IMG/VR virus record: IMGVR_UViG_3300032285_004186
From: a virus
Reading direction: 5' to 3' (one strand)
DNA length: 64,000 bases
This document shows positions 8,126 to 58,229 of the stretch, piece after piece; the stretch's first letter is position 1; the number at the start of each line of letters is the position of its first letter. Under the pieces are notes generated by a model. That model was not told the origin of the DNA, did no database searches, and was given only the letters and a program-made list of their open reading frames with translations. Position numbers and translations under genes: made by a program.

Positions 8126-8128
8126 TAT

Positions 8129-9444: not shown

Positions 9445-9466
9445 AAATTACATTTACAATAAACAC

Positions 9467-13497: not shown

Positions 13498-14670
13498 ATG
13501 AGAAAATATACATATCACGGTGAAATAATGACTATGGTTGAAAGTTTTACAGCAGCTTTCAATGACATTATTGTTAAAGGATATGATAAATCTCGAATAG
13601 TTATTCCAGATAGTGATAAAAAAGTACGATTTGTTTATGCACCTAAGCAGAGAGTTTATGAATCCTTAAACACTCCCGGACCGGGTGGAATATCTGTACC
13701 CGTAGTTTCTATCAGTCAAGGAAGTATAACCAGAGACAAAACTAGGGTTTTTAATAAAAATCAAGGATTTCAAATACCTTACCACTCCACCGGCGAATCA
13801 GATGAAATCATTAAAAATATATCTCAACCGGTTCCTATCAATTTGACAATTAATATGTCAATTATGACAAAGTATCAGGAACATATGGATCAAATTATTA
13901 GCAATTTTGTTCCTTACTGTGACCCTTATGTAATTATTTCTTGGAAATTTCCAGTTTTACCTGATTCCACAATTCCTTATGAAATAAGATCAGAAGTTTT
14001 ATGGGATGGCATGATAAAAACCACTTACCCAACAGAGTTACAACCAAATGCTCCGTTCAGACTTACCGCAGATACCTCTTTTACTATCAAGGGTTGGTTG
14101 TTCAAAAACAATGAGGAAGCTTATAATAAAATTTATTACATTAATAGTGATTTTTCACCAGTAGATCAAACATTTTTATTAGAACAATTACAAACAGAAA
14201 CAACACATATATCAGCTGCACCACATATTAAAAGTGCTTCACCTTATCGGTTATCATTTTGGACAGAAAACTTGCCTTATTCATCTTTAAATATTTTTGA
14301 TATAGATTTATATGGCAAATATTTTTTTGATATACAGGGTTTGTATTTAAGTGCCTCAAATAATGAGATGTTGCAAGGTATGCAACTGCATGATTTCTTT
14401 AGTTTGAGACCAAAATTGTCAGCAAATAATCCACCTTTTTATGCTTTAGAGCTATCAGGATTTAAAGTTGAATCAGATCATTATATAAAATTTGAAATAC
14501 CGCAAATACCATTAACTAGTGGAACATTTGATATTATAGCAGTCAATGAAGCGGGTTATGGTAAATTAACAACTGGTAGTTTAAGACAATCTATTAGTTC
14601 GTGGTCTGGGTGGACCTTAGAACAACCTCCTTATTCCTCCGGAATTTTTGTGACTCTTTTTGAAGCTTAA
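13498..14670 (+). CDS. gp15: Tail terminator/sheath stabiliser (T4 gp15-like) with C-terminal Ig-like extension
   Basis: YTYH.EI...FNDI, YAPKQR, QPVPINL, DQIISNFVPY, FTIKGWLF. Confidence 0.75.
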   Translation: MRKYTYHGEIMTMVESFTAAFNDIIVKGYDKSRIVIPDSDKKVRFVYAPKQRVYESLNTPGPGGISVPVVSISQGSITRDKTRVFNKNQGFQIPYHSTGESDEIIKNISQPVPINLTINMSIMTKYQEHMDQIISNFVPYCDPYVIISWKFPVLPDSTIPYEIRSEVLWDGMIKTTYPTELQPNAPFRLTADTSFTIKGWLFKNNEEAYNKIYYINSDFSPVDQTFLLEQLQTETTHISAAPHIKSASPYRLSFWTENLPYSSLNIFDIDLYGKYFFDIQGLYLSASNNEMLQGMQLHDFFSLRPKLSANNPPFYALELSGFKVESDHYIKFEIPQIPLTSGTFDIIAVNEAGYGKLTTGSLRQSISSWSGWTLEQPPYSSGIFVTLFEA

Positions 14671-28550: not shown

Positions 28551-31500
28551 ATGAGCATTCCTATACTTTCATCCAACACTGATTCTGGAAAAATGGGTGT
28601 TACTAAATTTATATTTGATTCTGGTATAACAGATAATTCATATAAAATTGTTTGGTATTTTGGTGATGGTGGGTCTTATAAAGGTAATACATCCCAACAC
28701 ATTTACTATTCACCAGGAACTTATACAGTTACGATGCTTGCTTATCCAACATCTGGCAGTCCTCTTATTCAGAAAAAGAACATAGTAATAACTCTGCATT
28801 TTAATAATTCTATTAATTTTAATTTTATTCCACCACCAACCTTTGCCGGACATTACAATAGATATCCATTTAGGGTTAACATAACTGCACCAGACATTCA
28901 TGATCATTATGTTAATCTGGGGTGTCAATTTTCTAGATCAGATTCTCCTCAGGAAGTACCAAATAAATGGTCTTTTTTAAGACCACAATGGAGGTTTTTT
29001 GATATTAATGGCAATTTGATACAAAAAATTAAAACTAAAGATACTATTATTAAAATAAATGATCTAGGTGATATAGATCCTAATGGTACTTTTGTTGCCG
29101 GAGTTACAGGATATGCAGATTTTTATTTTTCAGATGATATATACAATGCAGATTTGGCTCAAAATGGTTTGCCTTATACAACCATTATAGCCACTTTAGA
29201 TACATTAAATTCTAAAGATTTTACTTTACAATCTGATGCTTTAAATCAGCTTCCTAGTTATGCAAATAGTCTAGCATCTGCTACATGTCCTCATATATTC
29301 CTCTGGAGAACTCCAGATTATTTAAAAGTATCAGAAAACGGTATCCGACCATATGCAAACCCTCGATGGTCCGATAGCAATATTCCTATAATAGTAACCG
29401 CTAATATACATAATGAATTTCCAGATCCGTTTTTAGATGGTAATGGTGTAAAGATCATAAATCCAGACTCATTTTTTGTTCACAATTTTCCACTTAATAA
29501 TTTAGATTCAATTTATGTAAATTTACAAATTACTGGTTATGATATTAATTTTTCACCCACTCCATCATTTTATTGGACAGATGAATCAAATTATAAAATA
29601 CCAGGATATTATAAAGGTTCTTTTAATTTTCCAGAACCAAGTGCTTCTAATGTTCAAGTAGACGCCTCTTTAACATTTGCGATTCCTATCACTTCTTATA
29701 ACTACTATAATCCCTTTATATGGGTTTCTAGCTTATCTTCTAATCAAATATATGTAACGTCTTATCAAAAATTTAAAGAACTAGATTCTATTTCAATTAA
29801 TAAAGTTCCGTATACTAAGAGTATATCCTTTACTAATTCTTATTCAGCAAATGAATATACAATAGCTGCTGGACATTTACCTGATTATCATGCATGGGTA
29901 TCAGACCGAAATCTTAAGCAAATTTATCACGTTTCATCTTTAGGACAAATATTAACTACAGTTAATATACCTTCTTTAATAAAAAATTCTTGTGGAGTAT
30001 CTTTGACTGGCAATCAGGCGGAACCAGTTTCTTTAATCATGGACGGAAATAAAAATGTTTGGTTTTCCTTAAAAAATAGCTTGTCTACTGTTAAATTAGA
30101 TCCTTATGGCAATTTTTTATTAGCAACTTGTCCTCCAATTTACGATCCTACAGTTTCCTCTGGAGGCACTCCTACACACATGGAGACTAATTCTCTCAAT
30201 GATGTATATGTAAGTTATTCCAGCCTTGCAAGTGGATTTTTGGTGAGATATTCCTCAGATGGTTCTGTAATAAATGTTTCCGGTAGCATATATAACAGAA
30301 ATCTGGCCCCTAAACAAATCGTTAGTGCTTCCTCAGATAGCAATGGCGGAGATACTTGGCAGTGTATCTATTCAAACAACTCTAAAGATTATATTATACA
30401 AAAAAAATCTTGGGACAATAATTTATTATTTTATGATTCCAACAGTGCCATTTATGCCGCTTCTTATGGTCCCTTTTTAAATGTAAATCATTTAACTTTA
30501 GACAAAGATTATAATCTCTGGTTTACTTTTAATAACCAAAGTCTTGGAAAAATAACAAATTCTACATATGCATTATCTACTATAGAAGTATTCAATGAAT
30601 ATTCTTCTTTATTTACACCCAATTCATCTTCTGTTAAAGGTTTAGTAACAGATTTTAGTGGAAAAATATTTGTTATTAATTCCACTGAGAGTCAGGTTTA
30701 TGTGATTGATGGTGAACAAATGACTATAACAGATTCTTTTTATGTTAAGAATTTATCGACTTTTTCTGGTGATTGTAACGGATTTAATTGGATCAACAAA
30801 TATAGATCATCTGCTCCAGAGTTTTTTGATCAAGAAATTTATCAAACTATATCTGGATCTTCAAATTATTTAAATTTTTATACAGATAAAGCCCAGGAAT
30901 ATGGTTTATTTAAAATAAATGAAAATTATGATTTGGCTCAAACTCTTAAAGATCATGCATTTACACCCAAATTAATAGAAAGTTCTGTTTTATTTAATGA
31001 ATTTTTCCCGGCAATTTTTGGTAAAAAACCGTTTAATACAAATGATTTAGGAGTTGAATTATATGAAAAAATATCTAATTTTTCTCTTAATCACAATGAT
31101 ATAGATACTTGCGGATTAGATCAATTATACAACAATGCTCAAATGGTTGATTTGATAACAGATGATTTTCGTTTAAATTATCCACCAGAATTGTTAAGAT
31201 TAATGCATTTAGCCAGCATTAATCAAACTAGATTATGGGGTGGTCAATTAAAAGGAGGATTACAATTTAGTTCTAAAGATCAAAATGGTTTCTTTAATAG
31301 AGGATCTCTTATTTCTTCTTTTTCTTATAGAGTAACTGGTGGAATTCCTTTGGTATTAAAAAATAAAACACTTTATGATCCTTGTAAATTAATATATACC
31401 GGAAGAATAAACGGTTATAGATATTATAGTTTAGATACCCTGGCTCAATACCTTAAATTGCCCACAGCTTGGAGGAATCAGTATGAATTTTATTCATATA

Positions 31501-31670
31501 TTCCTTCCGTTTCTGGTGATTATTTAGGAGGTATTATAGATTGGAACAATCCTCAAACAACAATAAATTTTGAAAATCCAACCATAGAATATTGGTCTGG
31601 TAAAGAAGGTGTCCTGGAAACATCTTTTGCATATGAATTATACAAGGGTTTAAATCTCTTGAACAGTTAA
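28551..31670 (+). CDS. Large baseplate-associated protein (PKD domain, beta-propeller, gp7-like C-terminus)
   Basis: WYFGDG...HIYYSPGTYTVT PKD motif; blade-like repeats (DGNKNVWF, DKDYNLWF, DFSGKIFV); follows gp6. Confidence 0.6.
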   Translation: MSIPILSSNTDSGKMGVTKFIFDSGITDNSYKIVWYFGDGGSYKGNTSQHIYYSPGTYTVTMLAYPTSGSPLIQKKNIVITLHFNNSINFNFIPPPTFAGHYNRYPFRVNITAPDIHDHYVNLGCQFSRSDSPQEVPNKWSFLRPQWRFFDINGNLIQKIKTKDTIIKINDLGDIDPNGTFVAGVTGYADFYFSDDIYNADLAQNGLPYTTIIATLDTLNSKDFTLQSDALNQLPSYANSLASATCPHIFLWRTPDYLKVSENGIRPYANPRWSDSNIPIIVTANIHNEFPDPFLDGNGVKIINPDSFFVHNFPLNNLDSIYVNLQITGYDINFSPTPSFYWTDESNYKIPGYYKGSFNFPEPSASNVQVDASLTFAIPITSYNYYNPFIWVSSLSSNQIYVTSYQKFKELDSISINKVPYTKSISFTNSYSANEYTIAAGHLPDYHAWVSDRNLKQIYHVSSLGQILTTVNIPSLIKNSCGVSLTGNQAEPVSLIMDGNKNVWFSLKNSLSTVKLDPYGNFLLATCPPIYDPTVSSGGTPTHMETNSLNDVYVSYSSLASGFLVRYSSDGSVINVSGSIYNRNLAPKQIVSASSDSNGGDTWQCIYSNNSKDYIIQKKSWDNNLLFYDSNSAIYAASYGPFLNVNHLTLDKDYNLWFTFNNQSLGKITNSTYALSTIEVFNEYSSLFTPNSSSVKGLVTDFSGKIFVINSTESQVYVIDGEQMTITDSFYVKNLSTFSGDCNGFNWINKYRSSAPEFFDQEIYQTISGSSNYLNFYTDKAQEYGLFKINENYDLAQTLKDHAFTPKLIESSVLFNEFFPAIFGKKPFNTNDLGVELYEKISNFSLNHNDIDTCGLDQLYNNAQMVDLITDDFRLNYPPELLRLMHLASINQTRLWGGQLKGGLQFSSKDQNGFFNRGSLISSFSYRVTGGIPLVLKNKTLYDPCKLIYTGRINGYRYYSLDTLAQYLKLPTAWRNQYEFYSYIPSVSGDYLGGIIDWNNPQTTINFENPTIEYWSGKEGVLETSFAYELYKGLNLLNS

Positions 31671-31691: not shown

Positions 31692-34600
31692 ATGGCTAGC
31701 AGTATACAAGCTTTTAATATACAAACTTTAGGTTCTTGGCCTACAGAAACCTATCAAATAAGCCCACTGGATCAATATATAGATCCCAATGCCGGGTTTT
31801 TGCCGGCTGAAAACATGTTTCGCTACTTAAATGTAGCCATGAATGAAACTGACTCTTTACATACTGTTAATTATTATGGTATAAATTACAAATTTTCTGA
31901 TCCACCAATCAGTCAATATGTTATAGATACATCTCGTAATTCTTCTTTGGTATGGGATTTATCTTCTCATCGAAAAGCATACAATTTCGGACCTCAAATT
32001 AATTACTTGTATATATTGTCCAATCCAGGTGTAGATAGTTTGTATCAAAAATACTATGCTACTCTCACATATCCCTCTAGATTATTTTTAAAACCTTTAA
32101 ATTTACGGAAAAATGCCTCTTCTTGGACCCTTACTACCAGTTCTGTTTTAGTATCTGCCCAATCTTTCTTTTTTTCTGGTTCATCTCATGAAATAGCTTC
32201 TTATTTGCAGCACATTTCTTATTTAAATTCTCCACCAACATTTATTCCTTTACCTAATGATATAAAAAACAATTTTGTATTTGAATTATCTAGTTGTCGC
32301 ATGCAGGTAAACACACCACTGGTGATGTTTACAGATACCTTTAACCCAGCAAAAGCTAGTCGAACTTTAGATCGATTGGGAGGAGTTATACGCCCGGACT
32401 CAACTTTTATTACTTATAATATAAATTATTACAATAAACAAAATAATAAGATTACATCACTATCTCAAGTGACACCTGACGTAGATCATTTAGCTCCGCA
32501 TGGATTCAAAACATCATATATCCTTAATCAATCTGAGTTATCTAGTAGTAGTTTGCAAAAATATCAATTATTACAATATAAACCATTTGATAATGTCACT
32601 GATAATTTGGCATCACCATTTTTATGTATATTAAGTGCGGTTTTTAATCTTACATCTACTAATTTACAATATTTTAATTTACAATTTGCAAGAGACAATT
32701 ACACCCTCTACACGGCAAGCACAGGTACTCCGGGCAGCATAATAGGAGCTTCCTACATAGTAGACAGCGATAGAATGCTCTTTTCCACAGAAACCAGTCA
32801 AAGTACTCTTTCTTCTTTTCAAATAAACGGAATTTCTAAAAATCTAGGCATTCCTGTAAATTATGCATATCTAACAAACAATTCTTCTTGGACTACAAAA
32901 TATCCGCCTCATTATTATAGTTATAAAAATTCTTTATATTCTCCACTTAACGGATTTTCTAATAATAAATCTGATACTTGCAATCTTACTTTTTATTTAC
33001 AAACTTCTGTTGTAAATTTACAAACAACTAGTGCTCTTTTATCATCTTTTATATCTTCAGATCACAACATTTTGTCTTATAATCTTCCCGACAATAATGT
33101 AAATGAATATATTAAATATGAATTAATTTCTGATAATAGTTTAATCAGAAACACTCAATCTTTAAGTGCTATTAATTTTTATTACGGCTCTTCAACTTTT
33201 AGTTCTCCTTATAACATAATTTCATCTCCATGGGTGTCAGTTACAAGTGGGTGTCAATTATATATAGATTATCCAGGAGCACCATACGGACAAACTTCTT
33301 TAACAATACGTTCAACTCTAAGTTCTGCGGCTGGATACCTAGCATCTAGACAAGTAGCTGAAGTTTCTTTAGCACCTGGAATATTTCAAAGTGCTGTAGG
33401 GCATCCTATTTTCTTAGATAGAGTCGACCAAGGCCCAGATTATTTTGATGTTTCTTGCTCTATGTTAACAGCCTCTCCTGGATGGCCTACTAAAGATTTG
33501 CGAGATAGCTATATTTCCTGGAGTTTTACGCCTCAAGATTTAAATGCTCAACTTTTGTCTATAAATTCAGCTGGATCTGTTCTATTAAATCTATCAGCCA
33601 ATCAGCCTTATCGTTTTTCAGATTTTACAAATTCTGTAAGGTTGTCAGGTATTGGGTTTTCCACAGCAGTTATATACCTTTCGTCTCAAAAATATAATCA
33701 AGTTACTTCTCTTACTTCCATTTCTAGTTTATATGATCCTTTTTATTTAAAACAATTTGTTATAAATCCTCAAATTCCTTTAGCCAATGAAAATAAAACT
33801 AGAACTATAACTCTTTTTGCTCAATTACCATTTGCTAATCAACTTTATGACATACCTTTAGGCACTTCTGTGTTTTGGGAGTGGGATTATTTAACAAACA
33901 CAGCTCCTACCAGGGGTCCTATAAACGTTTATTATGGTCCTTTAAAGACTCCATACACATATGGTCAGGAAATGGATATAACATCTTTAAGTTCAATTTA
34001 TATTGAAATTACTCCTCAAGAAAATGATAATATTCCAATATTAAATCATGCAAGATTTCGTTTAAGTAGTAAAATTAGAAACCCTCAAATATCTAGTATA
34101 TATGAAGTAGTGGTTGATGATTTTCCAGCTCGCTCCATTTTTAATTCAGATTTTAAAATTGGATATACAAATTACCAACAAACAGAAGGTATTATATTAG
34201 ATACAGGTTTAAACAATTTTACAGTAACCCGCCCAAATGACGGCACCAATGTTTTTTCCCTTTCTAGTTATGCTAATTCTCACATTAGTCCAAACACAAC
34301 TTATGTATGGACCATTTCAGACGATGCAAACACTCTCTCTTCTCAAAAAATTTTATATTCTAATCATGTTATAAATTATGATATTAACCCTAGAGCCTCT
34401 GTTACTACTATAACTCTCAGTGCTCTCTCGGCTGTATTGACCCCGTGGTTTAATTTAAATATTACAGGCAACACAGAATTTTCTAACACAAATCCGGTCC
34501 ATAGTGTAGAAACATCTGTTACAGTATTTACACCAACCACGGCAGATTTTTACAAACCTTTAGAATTTATTATATATCCAGAATATGCTTGGTTAGGTGG

Positions 34601-37478
34601 GAGAAATTTAACTATATTAAATCAATCAAACTATACTTTATCTAAAGCACCTTCTGCATATCAGCATAAAAAATCTAATAGCCAGACATATTGGATAAGT
34701 GCTAATAAATTTTTTAATCAATATGATTATTGTATTGGTTCTAATTATCTATTTTTGTCTTCTTTAAGCAGTAATATAGGAATAATAGATATTCCATACT
34801 CCACAGAAATGTTTGATATTTCCGGATTAACAATTTCTTTGTCCGGGTTTAGTGATCTATATCCACCAAATCATACCATTTCTTATTTTAAACCTGATAA
34901 AGATTTTTTAAAGTCTTTTAATTTTTATATAACAGCTGCAACCAGTGTTTTATCTGGCAATTCTTATCTAAATTCTTTTAAATCTAATCCGTTTATAGTT
35001 CCTTACAATACAGATATAGATTTTACCTTTTCTTTAGCCAAGACTTCTCTGGATTTAAATTATAACAGAACAATTACCATTACTCAGCATTTTTCCGCTA
35101 AACCTTACAATTCTCCAGTAAGACCCCTAACTGAATTTGGTACAGTTACTTATTTACTTTCTACTAATTTTTGGTCCAAAGAAATCACTCTTCCGTCTAT
35201 AGACGGCACTTTCAACGCTCTTTATTTAAAAACCGGTGACCCCTATGAGGAAGGATATGTAAGTGATTCTCAAACAAATTATCTAGCATTTAAACCACTT
35301 TTTAGTAAAATGTTTTATCAAATACCCTCGTCTACTTTTGATAATTATTCTATAACTGATTATGAAGGTCAAAGAGATTTGTGGAATAAAGATACACAAA
35401 TAACTTATTTTCCAACATCAAATACTGGTCCGTATAAATGGCAAACTTTAGTTACTCACGTTACGGGTTTAAAACCATTAATTTTTGTGTCAGACTATAT
35501 AGCTCTTACTGGACAAGAAATATATATACAATATTCCATGCCAGATGAGCTAAAAGAACATTATCATAATGTAGCTTATTATGCTACAGATTTTGGTGAA
35601 ACTGGCTCGACTTATATTTTACCAACCACTAGTCTACCTTATCAATTAAGCAAATATCAATATTCTTCTACTGGATCTTTTTTTATACAATACTCTGCAT
35701 TTTATACAGATGGAGCTCTCAAAACCGGAGAACTTTTAGATCCTATCACAATCAAACCTTATTGGACTCAATATGATCAAAGTGTTATAAGAACCATAGA
35801 TGAAAATTCTTTAATTTTTCCTTATTCTTTAGAACAAACCACTATTCAACCTAATGAGTGGGGAGATGTTGATATCTTTAATACTTCAGTTTCTCGCTTA
35901 TATAACAATTTGCAATATTTGCAAGATAACATACAAACAATTAATTCTGATACACCCACATTACTTTATGGTTGGTTAGGTGGAAATGTTTATACTAAAT
36001 CTCAAGGCATTCGTTGGTTTGTTCGAAATTTTGATCCAAAATATTATCTTTTTCCTAATTATGCCTCAACCACCAATAGTGTATCTGCATTCTATAATAT
36101 AGAAGACATAGCTATTAATAATGATTACATATATGTATTAGATAATTATAAACTTAGATGTTTTTATAATAAATCTTACAAACCTATAGAGACTTTTTTT
36201 GATTTATCTTCTTCTTGGAATTTGGAAATGGTTGCTCCTAATAGTTTAGATATAGATTTAGAGACTTCTGATTTATTTATTGTAGACCCTCCTCGCAATA
36301 AAATTGTTCGTTTGAATGTAGATCTACAAACTCCAGCCATTAATTTTTCAGTTAATGTTGGTGGATTTGGATCTCGATTAGATTCCAGCAAATTTAACGC
36401 ACCTTCTCAGGTAGTTGTAGCCAATAATAGTGTTTTTGTTTTAGATTATAATAATAAATGTGTTAAAGAATATACCAAGGATCTTAATTGGATGCACACC
36501 TATTATCATCCAGATTTTGAAACTAATTCTCCCATTAGTATAGCCAGTAATCAAACTGGCTTAGTTTATATAGCCACGTCAACTTTTAAAATTTATATTT
36601 TTTCTGATGCAAATCCATCTACTCCAGTAGTTAATTTTACATTAACAGAAATGCAAAATTTAAATATAAAAATTGTTAAAATAATTTTAGATAAATTTGG
36701 CGGATTTTTATATGTTAACGGTATCAAGAAAACATTTAAATATACCTCCACACCTATAAAAACAAATAACAATTCTTATGTAGGAGTTTTTATAGGCATA
36801 ATGAATTTAAATTTTTCATCTTCTTCCATTAAAAACGGATCTAATCAAAATTTATTTTTATCAACTAAAAACGCGATTATTAGAGTACAAGACATAGTTG
36901 CTTTATTTAAAATTGGCAAAGGCTTGCCTTATTCAAATTGGACGCAAGAGCAATTATTGTTAAACAAACAAGAATTTGCTTCTGATTTAAACTATAATAA
37001 ATGTTTGCAGCGTTTAGTACAAAATGTTAAAACTTTTAGAAATAATTTAAATGCTAAATTTGTTAAATCTCTTAAAAAAACTGCTGTAGGAGATGTATCT
37101 TATTTTGCCATGGCTCCTATTTCTGTATCAGATCTACCTGTATTTGAAGATGATGTAGAAAATGAATTGGTTAATATTGGAGTCAATGAATTACATATAC
37201 CTCAGGTTTTTAATAGAGAAATATCTAAAATTTACAGATCTTTAGATTTATTAAGAAATTTTTTAAATATATCTCAAATATCAGAACCAACTACACAGAC
37301 TATACAAGAAAGTTTTTGTTGGTCTTGGAAGGCTACTTCTTGTTATAATTTAACCTTGCCTTCTATTAAAGTATTAGATGTAAATCCTATTACTTATACA
37401 GAATTAAAAGCAGACTTTCCTGTAGATTATGCACCCTCTAAATATTGGAAAGATGCTCAATCTAATTGCTGTTCTTAA
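31692..37478 (+). CDS. 1928-aa virion structural protein with C-terminal NHL-type beta-propeller
   Basis: TAAATA 6 nt upstream; Ser/Thr-rich beta content; LFIVDPPRNKIV, GGFG....SKFNAPSQV, VFVLDYNNKCVKEY. Confidence 0.65.
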   Translation: MASSIQAFNIQTLGSWPTETYQISPLDQYIDPNAGFLPAENMFRYLNVAMNETDSLHTVNYYGINYKFSDPPISQYVIDTSRNSSLVWDLSSHRKAYNFGPQINYLYILSNPGVDSLYQKYYATLTYPSRLFLKPLNLRKNASSWTLTTSSVLVSAQSFFFSGSSHEIASYLQHISYLNSPPTFIPLPNDIKNNFVFELSSCRMQVNTPLVMFTDTFNPAKASRTLDRLGGVIRPDSTFITYNINYYNKQNNKITSLSQVTPDVDHLAPHGFKTSYILNQSELSSSSLQKYQLLQYKPFDNVTDNLASPFLCILSAVFNLTSTNLQYFNLQFARDNYTLYTASTGTPGSIIGASYIVDSDRMLFSTETSQSTLSSFQINGISKNLGIPVNYAYLTNNSSWTTKYPPHYYSYKNSLYSPLNGFSNNKSDTCNLTFYLQTSVVNLQTTSALLSSFISSDHNILSYNLPDNNVNEYIKYELISDNSLIRNTQSLSAINFYYGSSTFSSPYNIISSPWVSVTSGCQLYIDYPGAPYGQTSLTIRSTLSSAAGYLASRQVAEVSLAPGIFQSAVGHPIFLDRVDQGPDYFDVSCSMLTASPGWPTKDLRDSYISWSFTPQDLNAQLLSINSAGSVLLNLSANQPYRFSDFTNSVRLSGIGFSTAVIYLSSQKYNQVTSLTSISSLYDPFYLKQFVINPQIPLANENKTRTITLFAQLPFANQLYDIPLGTSVFWEWDYLTNTAPTRGPINVYYGPLKTPYTYGQEMDITSLSSIYIEITPQENDNIPILNHARFRLSSKIRNPQISSIYEVVVDDFPARSIFNSDFKIGYTNYQQTEGIILDTGLNNFTVTRPNDGTNVFSLSSYANSHISPNTTYVWTISDDANTLSSQKILYSNHVINYDINPRASVTTITLSALSAVLTPWFNLNITGNTEFSNTNPVHSVETSVTVFTPTTADFYKPLEFIIYPEYAWLGGRNLTILNQSNYTLSKAPSAYQHKKSNSQTYWISANKFFNQYDYCIGSNYLFLSSLSSNIGIIDIPYSTEMFDISGLTISLSGFSDLYPPNHTISYFKPDKDFLKSFNFYITAATSVLSGNSYLNSFKSNPFIVPYNTDIDFTFSLAKTSLDLNYNRTITITQHFSAKPYNSPVRPLTEFGTVTYLLSTNFWSKEITLPSIDGTFNALYLKTGDPYEEGYVSDSQTNYLAFKPLFSKMFYQIPSSTFDNYSITDYEGQRDLWNKDTQITYFPTSNTGPYKWQTLVTHVTGLKPLIFVSDYIALTGQEIYIQYSMPDELKEHYHNVAYYATDFGETGSTYILPTTSLPYQLSKYQYSSTGSFFIQYSAFYTDGALKTGELLDPITIKPYWTQYDQSVIRTIDENSLIFPYSLEQTTIQPNEWGDVDIFNTSVSRLYNNLQYLQDNIQTINSDTPTLLYGWLGGNVYTKSQGIRWFVRNFDPKYYLFPNYASTTNSVSAFYNIEDIAINNDYIYVLDNYKLRCFYNKSYKPIETFFDLSSSWNLEMVAPNSLDIDLETSDLFIVDPPRNKIVRLNVDLQTPAINFSVNVGGFGSRLDSSKFNAPSQVVVANNSVFVLDYNNKCVKEYTKDLNWMHTYYHPDFETNSPISIASNQTGLVYIATSTFKIYIFSDANPSTPVVNFTLTEMQNLNIKIVKIILDKFGGFLYVNGIKKTFKYTSTPIKTNNNSYVGVFIGIMNLNFSSSSIKNGSNQNLFLSTKNAIIRVQDIVALFKIGKGLPYSNWTQEQLLLNKQEFASDLNYNKCLQRLVQNVKTFRNNLNAKFVKSLKKTAVGDVSYFAMAPISVSDLPVFEDDVENELVNIGVNELHIPQVFNREISKIYRSLDLLRNFLNISQISEPTTQTIQESFCWSWKATSCYNLTLPSIKVLDVNPITYTELKADFPVDYAPSKYWKDAQSNCCS

Positions 37479-39073: not shown

Positions 39074-42000
39074 ATGAATTCTTTATCTGCTAATGGTGAA
39101 ATAAAAATAACAGACCTCAGCCCGGCCAGAGATTTAAGGGCCAGTGATTTATTCATAGCAGCCACTCATCTTGATGGTTCTGCGGATATAACTACACAAT
39201 CTGTTTCTTCTTGTGTACTTTTAAAGTATATTTTAGCCAACGGAGCATATAATTTTGCACCAGATCTTTCTAGCATCGGCGCTCATACTTGTAATCCTTC
39301 ATTATATGGTAGTTTTGTATGTGATGTTAACTCTAAACATTTTACTATAATTCCTTCTCATCCATTACCTATATGTGAACCTTCTTTTGAAGCTCCTAAT
39401 TTAGGCACAGATTCTTATTATTCTAACATTGGCGGTGGTGTGGGAAATATTGTTTGGGGTTTAGAGACAACCATTGGTGGTGGATGTCGTAATGTGGTAA
39501 TGGATAGTAATTCTGTTATTGCTGGGGGGAAAAATAATTTTATTAATTGTTGCGGCTCCACAATTGCTGGGGGTGAAGACAATACCAGTTGTGATATCTA
39601 CACATCCATAGGTGGTGGAAATAATAACTTAATTAATCAAGTAGGTGGAACTATTGCCGGTGGAGAATACAATTATATTACTCAACCAGCAGGAGAAGAT
39701 ACAAATTATCAAGGAGCTGCTATAGTAGGAGGTTCTTGTAATGCCTTATCTGGATGTTTTGCTTTTATAGGTGGTGGATATCATAATTCGGTACAACAAA
39801 ACCACTCTTCTATAGTTGCAGGAAATTGTAATTTAATTTCTTCTTCTTTCAGCACAATTGGTGGTGGGCAAAATAATATTATATCTGGAAATTGTGGAGT
39901 TATAGGAGGAGGTTCTTTCAATCAATTAATATGTAACGGATCTATTATTGCTGGTGGAGATCATAATAGCACCGCTGGAGATTATTCAACAATTGGTGGT
40001 GGGAACTATAATTCTGTACAAAATTGCTTTTCTCAAATTGGCAATGGTGAACATAATTGCATAACCGGAGTTAAGTCTGTTATAAATTCTGGTACAGAAA
40101 ATTATATAGCAGGTGATTATGGTTTTGTAGGAAATGGTTTTTGCAATACTGCTAATTCTAATTTTAACATTATAACTAATGGAATGTATAATAATTCTGT
40201 TAGTGCTCATGCTACTATCATTAACGGTATTTGTAACAATACAATAGGAGACAAAGCCACCATTATTAACGGATGTCTTAATTCCGCAACATCAGATTAC
40301 ACTTTAATAGGTAATGGATGTAATAATGCATCCTCTGGCACAAATTCAACAGTTATTAATGGTATTTGCAACTCTTCTTCTGGTTGCAATAGCTTAATAG
40401 GTTCTGGTTGTAATAATCTAGCATCGGGATTTGAATCTCTTGTACTCAACGGAAATAATAATTCTTCTCACGGAATTAATAGTTCTATAATTAATGGATT
40501 TTCTAATTCTTTAAGTGGCAATTTAGCATCTATTATTAACGGTAGTAATAACTCTGCTATTGGCAATTGTAGTTTGATAGGCGGCGGTGCTTATAATAAT
40601 ACAAACGGGGTTTATTCTATTGTTGTTAATGGTTGCTGTAATATAGCATCTGCAAATCATGCTTCTGTAAATAATGGTTATTGTAATATTGCCAGCGGAG
40701 TCAATGCCACTGTTGTTAATGGTACATGTAATACTTCCTCCGGTAATTATAGTTTAATAATTCAAGGTTCGTGTAACTCTTCTCAAGGAATTAATTCAAC
40801 TATAATAAACGGGTATTGTAATACTGCTGTTGGAAATAATAGTTTTATAATCGCTGGCTGTTGTAACCTTGCTCTTGGTAGCAATTCTTCTGTTTTTACG
40901 GGCTGTAAAAATATATCTATATGCTCCAGCGGTTCTATAATATCTGGTTTTAGCAATACGGTATCTGCTATTCAGGCTACAATAGTTTCTGGCTCTAACA
41001 ATTTAGCCACTGGTTACAACAGCTTAATAGTTTCTGGATGTAATAATAGTACTGGTAACACTTCTTCAATTATTCTTGGTGGGTGTTTTAATACCTCTAA
41101 CGGAGCCAATAGCTTAATAACTGCAGGTTGTAGCAATGTTACACTTGGAACAAATTCCACAATTATCAACGGTGTCTGTAATGCTTCACAAAGCAATTAC
41201 AATTTGATAGCCAGTGGATGTTGTAATACAGTTACGAACAATTATTCTATTGTCCTAGGAGGGTCTAATAATTGTGTAAATGGTGCATCTAGTTCTATTA
41301 TAAACGGAACTGCTAACTTTTCTCCCGGATCCGGTAGTTTAATAGGATCTGGTAATTGTAACTCTTCTTGTGGAGCAAATTCTTCTGTTTTAAATGGAAA
41401 TTGTAATACTTCTTCTGGCAATTGCAGCACTGTAATAACTGGTTATTGTAATACTGCTTCTAATAATAATTCAGTTATTGTGGCTGGATGTTGTAATAAT
41501 ATAACAAGTGAGTATAGTATTATTAATAATGGCAAATGTAATTCTATTTCCGGCAATTATTCTGTTATAGCTGGCGGTTCAAATAATATTGCTGCTGGAG
41601 TTTGTAGTATTGTATCTGGCGGCTATGGAAATTGTGCTTTAAATCCAATTTCTTTAATAGTTGGTGGTTATTGTAATGTTTCTTCGGCAAATGGTAGTTC
41701 TATAATAGGTGGCAACTGCAATATCTCTTCTGGAACAAATTCTGCCATTATAAACGGTTGTTATAACAATGTTTCCGGAAAATGTAGTATAATCGGCAGT
41801 GGTTGTTGTAATCTAGTAACCAATGATTATTCTATTATAATTTCCGGGCGTAATAATTTTTCTTGTGGTAGCAATGATTTGATAGGAACTGGATTTTTTA
41901 ATTCTTTATCCGGTTCAAATTCTACTATAATCAACGGTGGATATAATTCAATTAATGGAAATTTTGCTTTAATAGCTGCTGGTTGCTATAATATAGCTGA

Positions 42001-45000
42001 CGGAAACTATTCTTCTATTATTAATGGTTGCAACAACATTTCTTCTGGAACAAATAGTACAGTAATCAATGGTCAAAACAACTCTATTAGTGGGTCTGAT
42101 TCTTCAATTATTAACGGTTGCTATAATTCTAGCTCCGGCAATTGTTCTTTAATAGGATCCGGAACAAACAATAATACTTCTGGCAACTTTTCAGTGATAA
42201 TAGATGGTTATTGTAACGTTTCATCCGGAAATAATAGTGTAATAGTCAATGGATGCAACAATATAGCATCTTCAGATTTTGCTAGTGTTTTTAACGGTAT
42301 TAAAAATACAGCCAACGGAGCTAGTAGTTTAGTGGCCAGTGGGTGTAATAATATTGCTTCAGGAAACAATGCTGTTATTTTTAGTGGATCCAATAATTTA
42401 GCATCCAATAATAACGGTCTTGTAATATCTGGGTTATATAATGCTTCTTCCGGTATTAACTCAACCATTATAGCCGGAGCCTTTAACAGTGCTTGCGGAA
42501 ATTATGGATTAATAGTAAATGGGTGTCAGAATGTTGCTTGTGGAGACTATTCTTTAATATTAAATGGATGTTTTAATACCTCTTCCTCTAATAATGGTAT
42601 AATAGCCGGGGGATATCTTAATACATCTTCTGGAAATTATTCCACAATATTAAATGGTAATAATAATTGTGCTTCAGGTAATCGCAGTTTAATAGCTTCC
42701 GGAACCTATAATGTTGCTAGTAATAATAATTCAGTTGTTTTTAGTGGTAATAATAATAGATCTAGTGCTTTTAACAGTACTATAATAGGTGGAGTTTGTA
42801 ATTCAGCCTCTGCTAACAACGCTTCTATTATCAATGGTAGTTGTAACAATGTATCTGCAGAATGTGGTTCTGTAATTTCTGGTAGCTGTAACAATGTATC
42901 CGGAGTTTATGGGTCTATAATTAATGGAAGATGTAATTCTATTAACTCTGATAATTCCTTTATAGCAGGTGGAACCTGTAATCAAAGCAATTTTCAACCC
43001 AATACTTTTATTTTAGGGTCTTGTATTACAGCCACTCGACCTGATTTCACTTATGTAAATAACTTAACATCTAAGAATGAAATTTATGCTGCAAATAATG
43101 TATGTAGTACAAATATTTGTGCTACACAATATATTCATTCTAGCATGGATATGTGTGCCTCAAATGTGTCTTACGGAAATATAGTATGTGGTACATCTTT
43201 TGTATGTTCACCTCAGTCTTTTTCTTCTATATGCTCTGTAACACCATTTTTAAGTGCTCAAAATGCTTGTGTATCCGATACAGTACATACTTCAATAGTT
43301 TGTTCAGATACATGCGTAGATGCTTGTTATCTTGTATCTAATAATATTCTTAGTAATCAATCTATCACTAATACCGGTATTTTAACCAATATAGGCACTC
43401 TTTCCAGTATTGGTTCTATTTGTAATTCTGGAAATATTAACAACATCGGTTCCGTTTGTAATGTTGGTATTTTGTGTAATATAGGCACTATTTGCAACTC
43501 ATCTGGTTCTATAAATAGTGATAATGACATTACAGTAAGTAGTACTGGTAGATTTTTAAGTGCTGGACACGACCTCATAGAATTATTCAATGCCTATACA
43601 GCTGGTCCAGGTTTTTATAAAACCCCAGCTGTAAATGAATTTGTGGGTGATGGTACAACTGTTATTTTCAGTTCGCCAGACTTTGCTAGCGTTAACCCAA
43701 ACAATTATATCATTTCTATTGGTGGATTGACTCAGAGACCTAATATAGATTTTACTTGCAATTATTATTATAAAGGGTCAGTTATCTTTAATGTTCCCCC
43801 TCCAGCCGGAGAAATTGTCACTATTTATTCTAATCAAAGCAGTGAAACTGGAAGAGAAATGATTGGATTTTTTAATCCGCAATATACAACAATTACTTCT
43901 TCTAATACTGCTCAATATTTATTACCCGGCTCTGTATATAATGGCGATGATGCTAACGGATACGTAGTAGCAGTTTCTGGTTTGGTTCAGAGACCGTATA
44001 CAGATTTCACGGTTACTAGTGCTTTTAACGGACAATATGGATTTGTAGGCGGTGTATTAACTCTTTCTAATACACCAGCTTCTAATATACCTATAGTGGT
44101 TTATTCCTATAAATTTACTGGATTATCTATTTATAATTCCATCATGCAGTATCTTTCTAGTACTAATTATGGGGTTCCAGTTTCATCTATAGTAGTTCCT
44201 AGTTTAACCGCCACTGTTGGTATAACCGCTCCGTGGATTAATACTCCAATTATATCATACAACACAGGCACAACTGTAAGAGGAGATTTAACTATTACAG
44301 GCGGGTTGACCACTTTAGGCGGAATTACTTTCTTAGGCTCTCAGGTTTCAAACACTACAGCTTTAAGTGTCGTGAATAACGGACCCGGAACTGCTTTATT
44401 CATTTCACAATTTAACACGGCATCTCCTATTGCATCTTTTTATGATTCTCAAGCGAATAAAGAAGTCTTGAGAATAGGTTCTACCGGAGCTATTAGAAAT
44501 GTCGGAATCTATACATCTACTCCTAATAAAACTTTAACAGTCACGGGAGATATAAGTGCCTCTGGATATTTATATGCCGGAAAAAGTCTTATTACCGGCC
44601 TAGGCACTTCTGTAGAAGACTCTGCTATTGAATTGGGAACGGATAGAACTGGTGACGGTAATGCTTATATAGACTTACACACTTCTGTAGGAACAGATTA
44701 TAATGCTCGTTTTATTAGATTATCTGGAATAAATGGTGCGGCATCTCTTACAAACATCGGCACCGGAAATCTTTCAATAACCCAGGAAGGAATTGCTCCT
44801 ATAATCTTTAATACTTCCGATACTGAAAGAATGCGCATTGGATCTGGAGGTAATATTGGTATAGGAACCTCTAATCCGAGAAGTTTTGTTGAAATATTAA
44901 GTTCTCAAAATGCCTCCACTGGATTGTTAATAAACAATCAAAGCAATCAACCTCTAGCTGAGTCTAGTTTAAACATTGGTGCTTACGGAGGAACTTGGTC

Positions 45001-56432: not shown

Positions 56433-57221
56433 ATGAGTGACATAGCAAATATACCCACAAAATTAGATGAACAATGTTCTTTAATTAATCTTATAGATGA
56501 AAATCAATGTGTTGGCAATTCTTTGGTTATAGTTAACAACAATTTAATTAATTTATCTTCAGCTTTACAAAATTTAGATGATTATTCATTTTTTTGGAAC
56601 AGTGCTTATACCTCCTTTCAAGCCAACAGTGGTACCTGGCTGATAGCAGCATCTCATATACAACAATATAATGAACTATGGAATAGTGCTTATTCTACGG
56701 TTCAAACTTTAAGCTCTAATTGGTCTAACCCATTTATTGTATTTTATCCGGAAATTATTTTAATAGATGATTGGTATACTAATCAAACTCAATATTTAAA
56801 CAATAATCTTTTAAATTGGATAACCACAAACTTTCCTCCTCAAACATTTTCTATCAATCAACTTATATACATACAAGTCAATTTATATCAAACATATCCA
56901 TTTAACTTTACTTTTAACAGAGAATTGCAGGAAAATTGTGCACCGAATGGTGGCTTAAGTGTTTCTTGTAATGAATGTGGTAGGCCGTCTAGGGGATGTA
57001 ATCACCACGGAGGATTGGCTGGCTGGGGGGATTGTGATAATGCTTTTAATCATTGTGGATTAGATATTGGAGTTGGCGGTTCTAGTTTTTCTTGTCAAGG
57101 TACAGGTGGTAAGACATTAAAAATACAAAAAACAATAAATTCTACGGACACTAGTATAGCCCGGATTTTAAAATTCACCTACCAAAACTCAAACAATAAT
57201 TCTTGGTCTTTTATTAGTTAA
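56433..57221 (+). CDS. Virion protein, paralogue 1 of 3, with Cys-rich insert
   Basis: Shared blocks CVGNSL..VNNN, TV..LSS.W, FYP, W...NFP. Confidence 0.6.
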   Translation: MSDIANIPTKLDEQCSLINLIDENQCVGNSLVIVNNNLINLSSALQNLDDYSFFWNSAYTSFQANSGTWLIAASHIQQYNELWNSAYSTVQTLSSNWSNPFIVFYPEIILIDDWYTNQTQYLNNNLLNWITTNFPPQTFSINQLIYIQVNLYQTYPFNFTFNRELQENCAPNGGLSVSCNECGRPSRGCNHHGGLAGWGDCDNAFNHCGLDIGVGGSSFSCQGTGGKTLKIQKTINSTDTSIARILKFTYQNSNNNSWSFIS

Positions 57222-57225
57222 ATTT

Positions 57226-58227
57226 ATGTATACTTTTACATCAATATTATCAACTTCTACTATAGGTGATTCTTTACTATATGTCAATAATAATTATGAA
57301 TCTTTAGATAATTGGACAGTTAGTATACAAACTAGTGCCAATAATCTGTGGCAACCATTAGTAGATTTATACAATAGCCATATAGATAGTTGGAATCAAT
57401 CTCTTACTTTTGCTCAACAAAATTCTGCTAAATGGGTAAGTGTAGCAACAACTGTTGAAAATTTAAGTTCACAGTGGCTTACTCCGTTGTCTTTGTTTTA
57501 TCCACATATATATTCAACCTCTCAAGATTTAAATACAATTAAAAATGATATTACCAAATGGTTAAATCAAAATTTTCCAGTTTCTGTTTCTTATAAAAAT
57601 ATACCATACTATGCAGAGAAGCAAAAAATCATAGTATATAGTTATAGTTACTATATTAACAAATCAATTAACTCTACAGAATTTTTAATAGATCAAACCA
57701 CCTGTAATACAGCCAATGGAATAAGTTATGTTAATTGTAGCAATCAATATACAGGCATAGCTTATTGTTCAAATGGAAACCTGAATTGCAATGATTATGC
57801 GAGTAACTGCGGTACTACTGGGAGTGTCAGTTGTTATTTTAATGCTCCTCCCTACGGACCTTATATAATTGGACAAGGTTATCGTACTGTTTTGGTGCCA
57901 GTAGATCCGATTATTTCCGTAGATGATGATGGAAATGTTACAACCACAGAACAGCCACCGCAACAAGTACAATTATATGGAGCTTTAAATGATACTGGTC
58001 AATCTTATATCCAGGTTAATTTAAATACCAACTTCACAGATCAAACAGAAAGTAAACATATTAATTACTTTAATTTTGAAGTTCGAGATTGTCAGTGGGT
58101 TTTTATATCTTCATTTAACAATCCAGTCCCAGTTCCTAAAACAGAATCAACTTATATAATATTATCAGAAAATGAAGAAATAATTTCTTCAGAATCCGCA
58201 GACACCTTAGTGTGGTTTAAAAAATAA
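57226..58227 (+). CDS. Virion protein, paralogue 2 of 3, with Cys-rich insert
   Basis: IGDSL.YVNNN, TTVENLSSQW, LFYP, WLNQNFP. Confidence 0.6.
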   Translation: MYTFTSILSTSTIGDSLLYVNNNYESLDNWTVSIQTSANNLWQPLVDLYNSHIDSWNQSLTFAQQNSAKWVSVATTVENLSSQWLTPLSLFYPHIYSTSQDLNTIKNDITKWLNQNFPVSVSYKNIPYYAEKQKIIVYSYSYYINKSINSTEFLIDQTTCNTANGISYVNCSNQYTGIAYCSNGNLNCNDYASNCGTTGSVSCYFNAPPYGPYIIGQGYRTVLVPVDPIISVDDDGNVTTTEQPPQQVQLYGALNDTGQSYIQVNLNTNFTDQTESKHINYFNFEVRDCQWVFISSFNNPVPVPKTESTYIILSENEEIISSESADTLVWFKK

Positions 58228-58229
58228 AT

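What the first reader, a model, noticed from the sequence alone, without database searches (positions are those of the whole stretch)
31692..37478. L-S-[A/G/S] tripeptide concentrated in outer virion proteins plus three phage glycosyltransferases: candidate sequon-directed virion glycosylation
Seen (manual counts): about 22 LS[AGS] in the 1928-aa protein, against roughly 4 expected from approximate composition, including stacked TLSALSAV and FLSSLSS. About 15 occur in the 2968-aa fibre, 3 in the short gp15 extension, several in the 50086, 52919, 56433-59597 and 62084 proteins, and one in a variable segment of gp23 (SAASLSGN). I found none in ~3,600 aa of 14 enzyme/replication proteins; the small 10852 protein is an exception with two LSS. 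These carriers have unrelated folds. The window encodes GT9-like (2047), GT2-like (8758) and GT4 (60897) transferases. Established: some mycobacteriophages glycosylate virions with their own GTs, and bacterial O-glycosylation can use 3-residue sequons. Inference: LS[AGS] marks serines modified to coat the virion. Caveat: these proteins are Ser-rich.
Basis: partly seen in the sequence, partly recalled or inferred. Interest (0 to 1): 0.8.

Follow-up and report, generated by a model that had tools for sequence, protein, structure and literature searches.

The report
Leu-Ser-small motif in phage tail proteins
A Leu-Ser-small tripeptide is 4-6 times over-represented at conserved beta-strand positions in accessory domains of an uncultured T4-like phage lineage, but nothing links it to the phage's sugar transferases, so a fold signature is more likely than a glycosylation code.

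Summary
The 1928-aa protein has 22 LS[AGS] against 4.2 expected, and 21 lie in residues 1-1100. The excess survives global, local-block, secondary-structure and strand-face shuffles.

- 49 homologs total 651 vs 169.
- The gp15 C-terminal extension in 88 orthologs has 176 vs 29, while its core has 15 vs 12.
- T4, S-CAM7 and P-SSM2 virion proteins pool to 41 vs 41.7, so the trait is lineage-specific.

The N-terminal module is a confident all-beta model of tandem Ig/cadherin-like sandwiches. The whole excess sits in recurrent alignment columns; sporadic sites match expectation. Leu and the small residue lie on the hydrophobic face of the strand. Ser lies on the polar face and is replaced by T, C, N or D, not A or G.

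All three GTs are real folds, but the link to the motif fails:
- GT4 (61% identical) occurs in S-CAM7, which has no enrichment and no homolog of the big protein.
- The GT9-fold enzyme lacks the hallmarks of protein heptosyltransferases.

The best reading is a lineage-specific beta-sandwich structural motif (~0.55). A glycosylation sequon is not excluded (~0.15). The decisive test is biochemical.

The parts
31692..37478 (+). Gene for the 1928-aa virion (baseplate-periphery or fibre) protein, the main carrier: 22 LS[AGS]
   Evidence: Intact ORF. About 45 full-length homologs at 32-65% identity, all from uncultured viral contigs. No match in cultured phages. Lies after the gp6-like and gp7-like genes.
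31692..35141 (+). N-terminal module (aa 1-1150): tandem Ig/FN3/cadherin/MG-like beta-sandwich domains carrying 21 of the 22 motifs
   Evidence: AF2 model pLDDT 86.9, all-beta. Foldseek and VIA-align hits to complement MG arrays, protocadherins, fibronectin, S-layer proteins and phage Ig-domain proteins. 16 of 21 motif Leu lie in strands. The module also occurs alone in ~1250-aa proteins.
32988..35003 (+). Five delimited beta-sandwich domains (aa 433-568, 569-685, 686-811, 812-949, 950-1104), each with a conserved motif at offset 94-110
   Evidence: Domain breaks come from recurrent VIA-align range ends. Offsets 110, 94, 105, 97, 100; penultimate strand in three domains. Random placement reaches the same coverage 11.5% of the time, so this is suggestive only.
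35142..37478 (+). C-terminal part (aa 1151-1928) with NHL-type repeats; no enrichment (1 vs 1.1)
   Evidence: PF01436 NHL at aa 1568-1593. Counts.
14179..14670 (+). C-terminal extension of gp15 (aa 228-390), the second strongly enriched module: 3 motifs here, 176 vs 28.9 across 88 orthologs
   Evidence: PF16724 covers only aa 4-226. Extension 6.1x against core 1.2x; column 284 reads L/V/I - S (85 of 89) - A/G/S. No cultured phage has the extension. Fold unverified: IPT/TIG lead at 0.83 only.
28551..31670 (+). gp7-like baseplate protein (1039 aa, PKD domain): 2 vs 2.0 here, but 6-7 vs 1.5 in orthologs of relatives
   Evidence: The sites conserved among relatives are absent from the window's ortholog.
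39074..47980 (+). 2968-aa fibre: 15 vs 7.9, partly from repeated units (N-S-LSG, I-LSS-G-x-V-G-I)
   Evidence: Beta-roll repeats, gp34 trimerisation domain and S74 chaperone domain.
56433..59597 (+). Three tandem paralogues sharing one TV-x-x-LSS-x-W element, so three counts trace to one ancestral site; the third carries a Gp38 adhesin domain
62084..63913 (-). 609-aa fibre-like protein (BNR/Asp-box, S74 chaperone domain), 4 LSG of which two come from a duplicated N-terminal segment; immediately upstream of GT4 on the same strand
60897..62042 (-). GT4 (GT-B) glycosyltransferase
   Evidence: PF00534 E 6.5e-18. phrog_3408 E 7e-152. 60-61% identical to the GT of Synechococcus phages S-CAM7 and ACG-2014f and of relative G004. 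Lies next to large fibre-type genes in all three contexts, but those neighbours are not homologous to each other.
2047..2934 (+). 295-aa GT9-fold glycosyltransferase
   Evidence: No Pfam or NCBIfam hit. JGI names homologs ADP-heptose:LPS heptosyltransferase. AF2 pLDDT 91.6. Foldseek top hits are GT9 3tov, WaaF, WaaC and TibC. No four-Cys iron finger.
8758..9444 (+). GT2-like (GT-A) glycosyltransferase lying between a free glutamine amidotransferase and DUF366, downstream of QueC
   Evidence: PF13712 33.9 bits. Neighbours identified. An earlier follow-up judged it independent of the deazaguanine genes.

Best explanation
LS[AGS] is the commonest form of a position-conserved motif, aliphatic - Ser - small. 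It sits in beta-strands of accessory beta-sandwich modules of an uncultured T4-like phage lineage. The carriers are the roughly ten-domain N-terminal array of the 1928-aa baseplate/fibre protein, and probably the C-terminal extension of gp15.

The Leu (or V/I/F) and the small residue two positions later lie on the hydrophobic face of the strand. The Ser between them lies on the polar face. The most likely reading is a fold-level signature of a lineage-specific sandwich domain type, multiplied by tandem duplication and kept by purifying selection. In that reading Leu anchors the strand in the core, the small residue (A > C > S > G) allows close packing where the strand leaves the sheet, and the Ser hydroxyl (replaceable by T, C, N or D) makes a local hydrogen bond or polar surface contact.

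Shown: the enrichment, its lineage specificity, its confinement to conserved columns, the beta-sandwich fold, the strand location, and the substitution spectra.

Inferred: burial of Leu and the small residue, the hydrogen-bonding role of Ser, and a common origin of the domains.
For: - Excess is family-wide (651 vs 169 in 49 homologs) and restricted to the N-terminal module; the C-terminal part is at about 1x.
- The whole excess lies in recurrent alignment columns: 9.8 per sequence, against 1.9-3.5 sporadic sites per sequence and an expectation of 3.5. gp15 shows the same pattern.
- Confident all-beta model with tandem Ig/cadherin/FN3/MG-type matches.
- 16 of 21 motif Leu lie in strands, and 12 of 21 sites have in-out-in geometry.
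- Column profiles: position -2 is hydrophobic; L, S and the small residue are the three most conserved columns; the flanks are variable.
- Graded preferences fit a packing position at +2: LSA 8.7x, LSC 4.5x, LSS 3.7x, LSG 3.3x, LST 1.5x. L is exchanged with V, I and F.
- A motif falls at offset 94-110 in each of five consecutive domains.
- Enrichment is absent from the conserved gp15 core and present only in its added domain.
- The window's gp7 ortholog lacks the sites that relatives keep.
Against: - The motif is not a generic beta-sandwich feature. P-SSM2 (5195-aa gp7 and a 2506-aa protein), S-CAM7 and T4 virion proteins show none: 41 vs 41.7 pooled.
- Shuffles that keep strand faces still expect only 3.35, so amphipathic alternation does not produce it.
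- Profile comparison finds no homology among the domains, or between them and the gp15 extension (all below 10-30% probability). A common origin is therefore not demonstrated.
- The shared offset is not significant (p 0.115).
- Motif Leu are no closer to strand ends than other strand Leu (p 0.76).
- Ser is often the best-conserved residue (85 of 89; 34-36 of 36) and avoids A/G replacement. That calls for a Ser-specific reason I can only infer.
- Other virion proteins of this lineage keep a roughly 2x excess that local composition does not explain.
Confidence: 0.55

Rival explanations
1. Sequon-directed O-glycosylation. The exposed Ser of aliphatic-Ser-small is the acceptor for a phage glycosyltransferase acting in the cytoplasm, probably on the unfolded or nascent chain, and this coats the accessory domains of the virion with sugar.
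For: - The enrichment is real, lineage-specific and limited to virion proteins, in at least two non-homologous modules.
- Ser is on the polar face and is the most conserved residue at several sites. Thr is the commonest replacement in the big protein (2.7x background), and A/G are avoided.
- Three GT folds are confirmed in the window.
- GT4 lies beside fibre genes in three genomes.
- The GT9 fold matches TibC, a protein Ser heptosyltransferase, about as well as it matches LPS heptosyltransferases.
- Unchecked earlier notes report many more GT genes in this genome, some among fibre genes.
Against: - There is no turnover or gain of sites.
- L and the +2 residue lie on the buried face, and the exposed neighbours are unconserved, so a folded domain would not present a readable sequon.
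- N, D, K, E and C also replace Ser.
- Only 27% of sites are shared between orthologs at 30-40% identity, and the window's gp7 has lost them all.
- GT4 at 61% identity occurs in S-CAM7, which has no homolog of the big protein and no enrichment (15 vs 12.5; P = 0.03 against a 1.93x ratio).
- P-SSM2 has a distant GT9-like homolog and no enrichment.
- The GT9-fold enzyme lacks the iron finger and N-terminal barrel of BAHTs.
- Capsid and tail-tube proteins, the substrates in mycobacteriophages, are not enriched.
- The motif sits in ordered, high-pLDDT strands and not in loops or low-complexity segments.
Confidence: 0.15
2. The conserved exposed Ser serves another function shared by these accessory domains. 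Candidates are a contact surface for a common partner (neighbouring subunits, whiskers or fibres, a chaperone) or a modification other than glycosylation.
For: - Ser-specific conservation on the polar face in non-homologous modules of one lineage.
- Absence from controls.
- A modest excess across many virion proteins of the lineage.
Against: - No partner or enzyme is identified.
- The flanking exposed positions are variable, which is unusual for an interface.
- Sites are lost freely between orthologs.
Confidence: 0.12
3. Statistical artefact: Ser-rich composition, local composition, repeats, or post-hoc choice of the motif.
For: - The carriers are Ser-rich (12-14%).
- Part of the signal outside the main protein comes from repeats and paralogues.
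- In those proteins LS[AGS] is not the top pattern.
Against: - Four kinds of shuffle leave 21-22 vs 3.4-4.7.
- LSS is the top tripeptide of 8000.
- Independent orthologs repeat the result.
- There is no self-similarity by BLAST or hhalign.
Confidence: 0.03

Closest known systems
Tandem Ig-like/FN3/cadherin-type beta-sandwich decorations on tailed-phage virions (for example Hoc-type and Big/PKD/BACON-bearing structural proteins)
   Same: The N-terminal 1150 aa fold as a string of beta-sandwich domains. They match protocadherin, fibronectin, complement MG and S-layer arrays, and phage 'immunoglobulin domain' and 'outer capsid' proteins. The PHI-x-PHI-x-small pattern on one face of a strand resembles the strand B and F signatures of Ig, FN3 and cadherin domains (my own knowledge, not tested).
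   Different: No Pfam or PHROG domain is detected in the module. The domains are longer (116-155 aa). The central Ser is specifically conserved. Comparable giant proteins of P-SSM2, S-CAM7 and T4 lack the motif.
Bacterial autotransporter heptosyltransferases (BAHT: TibC, Aah) modifying TibA/AIDA-I (PMC4358343)
   Same: A GT9-fold enzyme that O-glycosylates many serines at patterned positions of a beta-rich repeat protein in the cytoplasm. The phage ORF 2047 has a GT9 fold and matches TibC at TMq 0.62-0.64.
   Different: [quoted passage not shown] The phage protein has 295 aa, starts directly with the Rossmann strand, and has only two conserved Cys. LPS heptosyltransferases match equally well or better. 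The substrates here are sandwiches, not a beta-helix.
Mycobacteriophage virion glycosylation by phage-encoded glycosyltransferases (Freeman et al. 2023, cited in PMC12801897 ref. 61; the paper itself is not held)
   Same: Phage-encoded GT genes next to structural genes, and the idea of a sugar coat on virions.
   Different: From memory, the capsid and tail-tube subunits are the modified proteins there. Here gp23 and the tube and sheath proteins are not enriched, and nothing has been shown biochemically.
Three-residue bacterial O-glycosylation sequon D-(S/T)-(A/I/L/V/M/T) of Bacteroidota (my own knowledge)
   Same: A short motif with Ser followed by a small or aliphatic residue.
   Different: That motif needs Asp before the acceptor. 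It is read in the periplasm by an oligosaccharyltransferase using lipid-linked glycans. Here the preceding residue is Leu and virions assemble in the cytoplasm.

Membership tests
Tandem Ig-like/FN3/cadherin-type beta-sandwich array | Successive ~100-150-aa two-sheet beta-sandwich domains | tested here: met
Tandem Ig-like/FN3/cadherin-type beta-sandwich array | Membership of a curated sequence family (Pfam Ig, fn3, Cadherin, PKD, Big, TIG) | tested here: not met
   No Pfam hit in aa 1-1150 at E <= 0.01. gp15 extension: no Pfam hit in 39 orthologs at E <= 0.1.
Tandem Ig-like/FN3/cadherin-type beta-sandwich array | Domains related to each other (internal repeats) | tested here: inconclusive
   Self-BLAST finds none. 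hhalign best 30% probability with windows and 9% with real boundaries. A motif at a similar offset in 5 of 5 domains, p 0.115.
Sequon-directed protein O-glycosylation system | Motif enriched in substrates beyond composition | tested here: met
Sequon-directed protein O-glycosylation system | Acceptor residue exposed | tested here: inconclusive
   Polar-face assignment for 12 of 21 sites and a substitution spectrum typical of exposed positions.
Sequon-directed protein O-glycosylation system | A transferase whose distribution follows the substrates or motif | tested here: not met
   GT4 at 60-61% identity occurs in S-CAM7 and ACG-2014f, which lack the big protein and the enrichment. GT9-like relatives are spread over cyanophages and a pelagiphage, and P-SSM2 shows no enrichment. 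Only fragments of relatives could be searched.
Sequon-directed protein O-glycosylation system | Sugar demonstrated on the motif residue | not testable with these tools
   Needs mass spectrometry or glycan staining.
BAHT protein heptosyltransferases (TibC/Aah) | GT9-type GT-B catalytic fold | tested here: met
   Foldseek: 3tov E 5e-12, WaaF 1e-9, WaaC, and TibC 4rb4 E 9e-8 with TMq 0.62-0.64.
BAHT protein heptosyltransferases (TibC/Aah) | Iron finger with four conserved cysteines | tested here: not met
   Only C99 (100%) and C275 (88%) are conserved in 42 homologs. Requirement taken from PMC4358343.
BAHT protein heptosyltransferases (TibC/Aah) | N-terminal beta-barrel and beta-hairpin thumb for the dodecamer | tested here: not met
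   295 aa against ~406 aa. The first Rossmann strand starts at residue 4, and no extra N-terminal domain appears in the model.
Mycobacteriophage-type virion glycosylation | Phage GT genes adjacent to virion structural genes | tested here: met
   GT4 lies directly downstream of the 609-aa fibre-like gene. Its homologs lie among tail and fibre genes in S-CAM7 and G004.
Mycobacteriophage-type virion glycosylation | Major capsid and tail-tube subunits are the modified proteins | not tested
   Only motif counts are available: gp23 has 1 vs 0.6, and the sheath, tube and portal region shows no excess. That says nothing about modification as such.
GT4 (Glycos_transf_1) | Pfam PF00534 above the gathering score | tested here: met
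   65.3 bits against cut-off 26.4.

The most novel reading that the evidence does not exclude
The exposed serine of the aliphatic-Ser-small motif is O-glycosylated in the cytoplasm by one of this lineage's own transferases. Candidates are the minimal 295-aa GT9-fold enzyme or a member of the GT island reported upstream. This would give a domain-embedded glycosylation code on Ig-like decoration modules of a marine T4-like phage. It would be a phage counterpart of autotransporter heptosylation, or of the consensus-directed O-fucosylation of EGF and TSR repeats.
Probability: 0.15. Interest if true: 0.8.

Novelty: new member of a known kind. Interest (0 to 1): 0.4.

Why it matters
If the motif is only a fold signature, the result is a tidy description of a new, unannotated family of giant baseplate/fibre proteins. 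It also describes a gp15 with an added domain, in an uncultured T4-like lineage, and gives a compact marker (aliphatic-Ser-small in strands) for recognising these modules.

If the serines are modified, this would be the first sequence-readable glycosylation code on a phage virion. Sugar coats could then be predicted from metagenomes, which bears on host recognition, grazing and particle stickiness of marine viruses.

The work here narrows the question to a small, cheap experiment: one 160-aa domain, three to a dozen transferases, and intact-mass spectrometry.

Tried and rejected
- **DNA-level motif.** Rejected: the codons for L, S and the third residue vary freely.
- **Composition artefacts.** Rejected for the main protein by global, 30-120-aa block, secondary-structure-class and strand-face shuffles.
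- **Sequence-level internal repeats.** None by self-BLAST. hhalign of windows and of true domains stays below 30% and 10% probability.
- **Generic property of large beta-rich myovirus proteins.** Rejected by T4, S-CAM7 and P-SSM2.
- **Strand-exit cap.** Leu is 2.4x enriched two residues before strand ends in general, but motif Leu are no closer to ends than other Leu (p 0.76).
- **Same offset in every domain.** 5 of 5, but p 0.115.
- **gp15 extension related to the big protein's domains.** hhalign probability below 1.1%.
- **gp15 extension as an IPT/TIG domain.** Only an atlas lead at 0.83; no Pfam or PDB profile hit.
- **GT9-like ORF as a BAHT.** Rejected.
- **GT2-like gene as part of the QueC DNA-modification genes.** This was my first inference from adjacency. 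An earlier follow-up judged the gene a bystander, and I did not test this further.
- **Reaching the window's own contig to verify the GT island reported upstream.** No genome is held. An exact 43-mer is absent from viral contigs and metagenome contigs.
- **Literature.** Freeman et al. 2023 is not held in the library.
- **Solvent accessibility.** Model coordinates are not exposed to scripts, so it was not computed.
Full report
**What the window is.** The window comes from a distant T4-like myovirus with about 31% GC. Its gp23 is only 34% identical to those of cyanomyophages. Pfam recognises gp15 and a gp6-like baseplate protein. The order gp6-like, gp7-like (1039 aa, PKD domain), the 1928-aa ORF, then fibres follows the T4 baseplate module. 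No whole genome is held. No cultured phage has a homolog of the 1928-aa protein.

The 1928-aa protein has 22 LS[AGS] against 4.24 expected.
- 21 of the 22 lie in residues 1-1100, where 3.3 are expected. The remaining 828 residues have 1 against 1.1.
- LSS is the most enriched of all tripeptides in the protein (14 vs 2.5, z 7.2), so the post-hoc choice of motif does not create the result.
- Codons vary, so the signal is in the protein.
- The excess survives 30-120-aa block shuffles (22 vs 4.6), shuffles within secondary-structure classes (21 vs 3.4) and shuffles that keep the hydrophobic and polar face of every strand (21 vs 3.35).

**It is a family trait.**
- Forty-nine homologs at 26-65% identity total 651 motifs against 169 expected, again in the N-terminal part.
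- In a 36-sequence alignment, 478 instances fall in 125 columns. About a dozen columns carry the motif in 10-29 sequences.
- Sites in columns shared by at most 1-3 sequences number 1.9-3.5 per protein, which equals the composition expectation of 3.5. The whole excess (9.8 per protein) lies in recurrent columns.
- So the proteins do not accumulate the motif at new places. A fixed set of positions has an aliphatic-Ser-small profile.

**Fold.**
- An AlphaFold model of residues 1-1150, built on 55 sequences, has mean pLDDT 86.9 and is almost all beta.
- Foldseek and VIA-align match it to multi-domain beta-sandwich arrays: complement MG domains, protocadherins, fibronectin, gp130, S-layer proteins and phage Ig-domain proteins.
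- Alignment ranges break repeatedly near residues 433, 569, 686, 812, 950 and 1105. That gives five consecutive domains of 116-155 aa.

**Anatomy of the sites.**
- Sixteen of 21 motif leucines are in strands, although strands make up 43% of residues.
- At 14 recurrent sites, position -2 is hydrophobic. L, S and the small residue are the three most conserved columns (entropy 0.98, 1.15, 1.27). The flanks are variable at 1.8-2.2.
- Twelve of 21 sites have Leu on the hydrophobic face, Ser on the polar face and the small residue back on the hydrophobic face.
- Across the family the preferences are graded:
  - first position: L 4.75x, V 2.4x, I 1.7x;
  - second position: S 4.75x, C 3.6x, T 1.8x;
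  - third position: A 8.7x, C 4.5x, S 3.7x, G 3.3x, T 1.5x.
- Motif serines are kept more often than other serines (50% vs 29%, p 0.001).
- When Ser is replaced, T (2.7x background), C (22x), N/D (1.5x) and K/R/E (1.8x) are used. A/G (0.2x) and hydrophobic residues (0.25x) are avoided.
- The middle position is therefore polar and probably exposed, and prefers a hydroxyl. The third position behaves as a packed small residue.
- A conserved site falls at offset 94-110 in each of the five delimited domains, in the penultimate strand in three of them. Random placement achieves this 11.5% of the time.
- No homology among the domains is detectable.

**Other proteins.**
- The remaining structural proteins of the window have 47 against 24.4.
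- There LS[AGS] ranks fourth among XY[AGS] patterns, and VS[AGS] is equally enriched.
- Several instances are copies: three paralogues share one TV-x-x-LSS-x-W element, the 62084 protein has a duplicated segment, and the fibre has repeat units.
- The gp15 result was unexpected. In 88 orthologs the C-terminal extension has 176 against 28.9 (6.1x), while the conserved core has 15 against 12.2. Column 284 reads L/V/I - S (85 of 89) - A/G/S. Sporadic columns are again below expectation.
- The extension is not detectably related to the big protein's domains. Its fold is unverified, and no cultured phage has it.
- In relatives about 33% identical, the gp7-like protein has 6-7 against 1.5 and neighbouring genes are 2-3x enriched. 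The window's own gp7 ortholog has 2 against 2.0 and none of those sites.

**Controls.**
- T4 structural proteins: 9 vs 11.1.
- P-SSM2, including its 5195-aa gp7 and a 2506-aa protein: 17 vs 18.2.
- S-CAM7 virion proteins (8075 aa): 15 vs 12.5.
- Pooled: 41 vs 41.7.
- The enrichment is thus a property of this uncultured lineage. It is not a general property of big beta-rich myovirus proteins, nor of AT-rich marine phages.

**The transferases.**
- GT4 is secure (PF00534; phrog_3408 E 7e-152).
  - It lies beside large fibre-type genes here, in S-CAM7 and in relative G004, but those neighbours are not homologous to each other.
  - It is 60-61% identical in S-CAM7 and ACG-2014f. Those phages have no homolog of the big protein and no enrichment.
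- The GT2-like gene passes Pfam's cut-off. It sits between a glutamine amidotransferase and DUF366, downstream of QueC. An earlier follow-up in this scan judged it independent of that deazaguanine system.
- ORF 2047 has no family hit, but its homologs are named heptosyltransferase by JGI.
  - Its model (pLDDT 91.6) matches GT9 enzymes, including the protein heptosyltransferase TibC.
  - It lacks TibC's four-Cys iron finger and N-terminal barrel, which are required for TibC's assembly and activity (PMC4358343).
  - Distant relatives occur in cyanophages and a pelagiphage.
- Unchecked earlier notes report a GT-rich island just upstream of the window and a glycosylation/sulfation cassette among fibre genes. 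I could not reach that DNA.

**Weighing.**
- For a sequon: lineage specificity, restriction to virion accessory domains, a conserved hydroxyl on the polar face, and a GT-rich genome.
- Against a sequon:
  - confinement to conserved columns, with no gain of sites;
  - Leu and the +2 residue on the buried face, with unconserved exposed neighbours, so only an unfolded chain would present the motif;
  - replacement of Ser by N, D, K, E and C;
  - free loss of sites between orthologs;
  - location in ordered strands;
  - failure of the only testable GT link: GT4 and distant GT9-like relatives occur in phages without the motif.
- I therefore favour a lineage-specific beta-sandwich structural motif (0.55). 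Its weak points are stated: no demonstrable domain homology, absence from comparable proteins elsewhere, and an inferred role for Ser.
- Ser-directed glycosylation stays at about 0.15, and another Ser-dependent function at about 0.12.
- The question is now a short bench experiment, not a computational one.

**Limits.**
- Pooled ortholog counts are not phylogenetically independent. The number of recurrent columns (about 12 in the big protein, about 7 in the gp15 extension) is the fairer measure.

Noticed in passing
window 7382-10060: QueC (TIGR00364, 164.6 bits), a free GlmS-type glutamine amidotransferase domain, a GT2-like gene and DUF366 lie in a tight row. This is a 7-deazaguanine DNA-modification context. 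Earlier notes of this scan cover it.
   Followed up: partly
window 13498-14670: gp15 (tail sheath stabiliser) carries a ~160-aa C-terminal extension that is present in many uncultured relatives (380-430 aa) and absent in others (250-295 aa). No cultured phage has it: tblastn coverage is at most 39%. The consensus looks like an IPT/TIG-type Ig fold, but this is unverified.
   Followed up: partly
window 2047-2934: A minimal 295-aa GT9-fold glycosyltransferase family with no Pfam or NCBIfam model. It is found in 170+ protein clusters on marine viral contigs. G12, G13, G15, K16, D154 and D212 are invariant.
   Followed up: partly
window 32001-36000: GC skew is -0.19 over the gene segment for the N-terminal module, while nearly all the rest of the co-oriented window is positive. 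This presumably reflects TCT/ACN-rich Ser/Thr codon use.
   Followed up: no
window 39074-47980: The 2968-aa fibre combines five stretches matching the grass antifreeze beta-roll (PF21300), a gp34-type trimerisation domain and a C-terminal S74 intramolecular chaperone domain.
   Followed up: no
window 56433-59597: Three tandem paralogues share an N-terminal scaffold that includes TV-x-x-LSS-x-W. The third ends in a Gp38-type adhesin domain (PF05268).
   Followed up: partly
window 62084-63913 (-): A fibre-like protein with a duplicated ~34-aa N-terminal segment, BNR/Asp-box repeats, an S74 chaperone domain and a weak Chlorovirus glycoprotein-repeat hit (E 9e-4). It is co-oriented with, and directly upstream of, GT4.
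   Followed up: no
window 52919-56431: A 1170-aa virion protein with a concanavalin A-like lectin/glucanase domain (PF13385) near its C-terminus.
   Followed up: no
window 1150-1578: A SegE-type GIY-YIG homing endonuclease (PF19835, E 2e-28) lies just upstream of the GT9-fold gene.
   Followed up: no
L001 (S-CAM7 17.9-20.4 kb) and L008/L009 (P-SSM2): 2OG-Fe(II) oxygenase genes sit next to the GT4 homolog and among the structural genes of the cyanophages. That is another possible protein-modifying activity near fibre genes.
   Followed up: no
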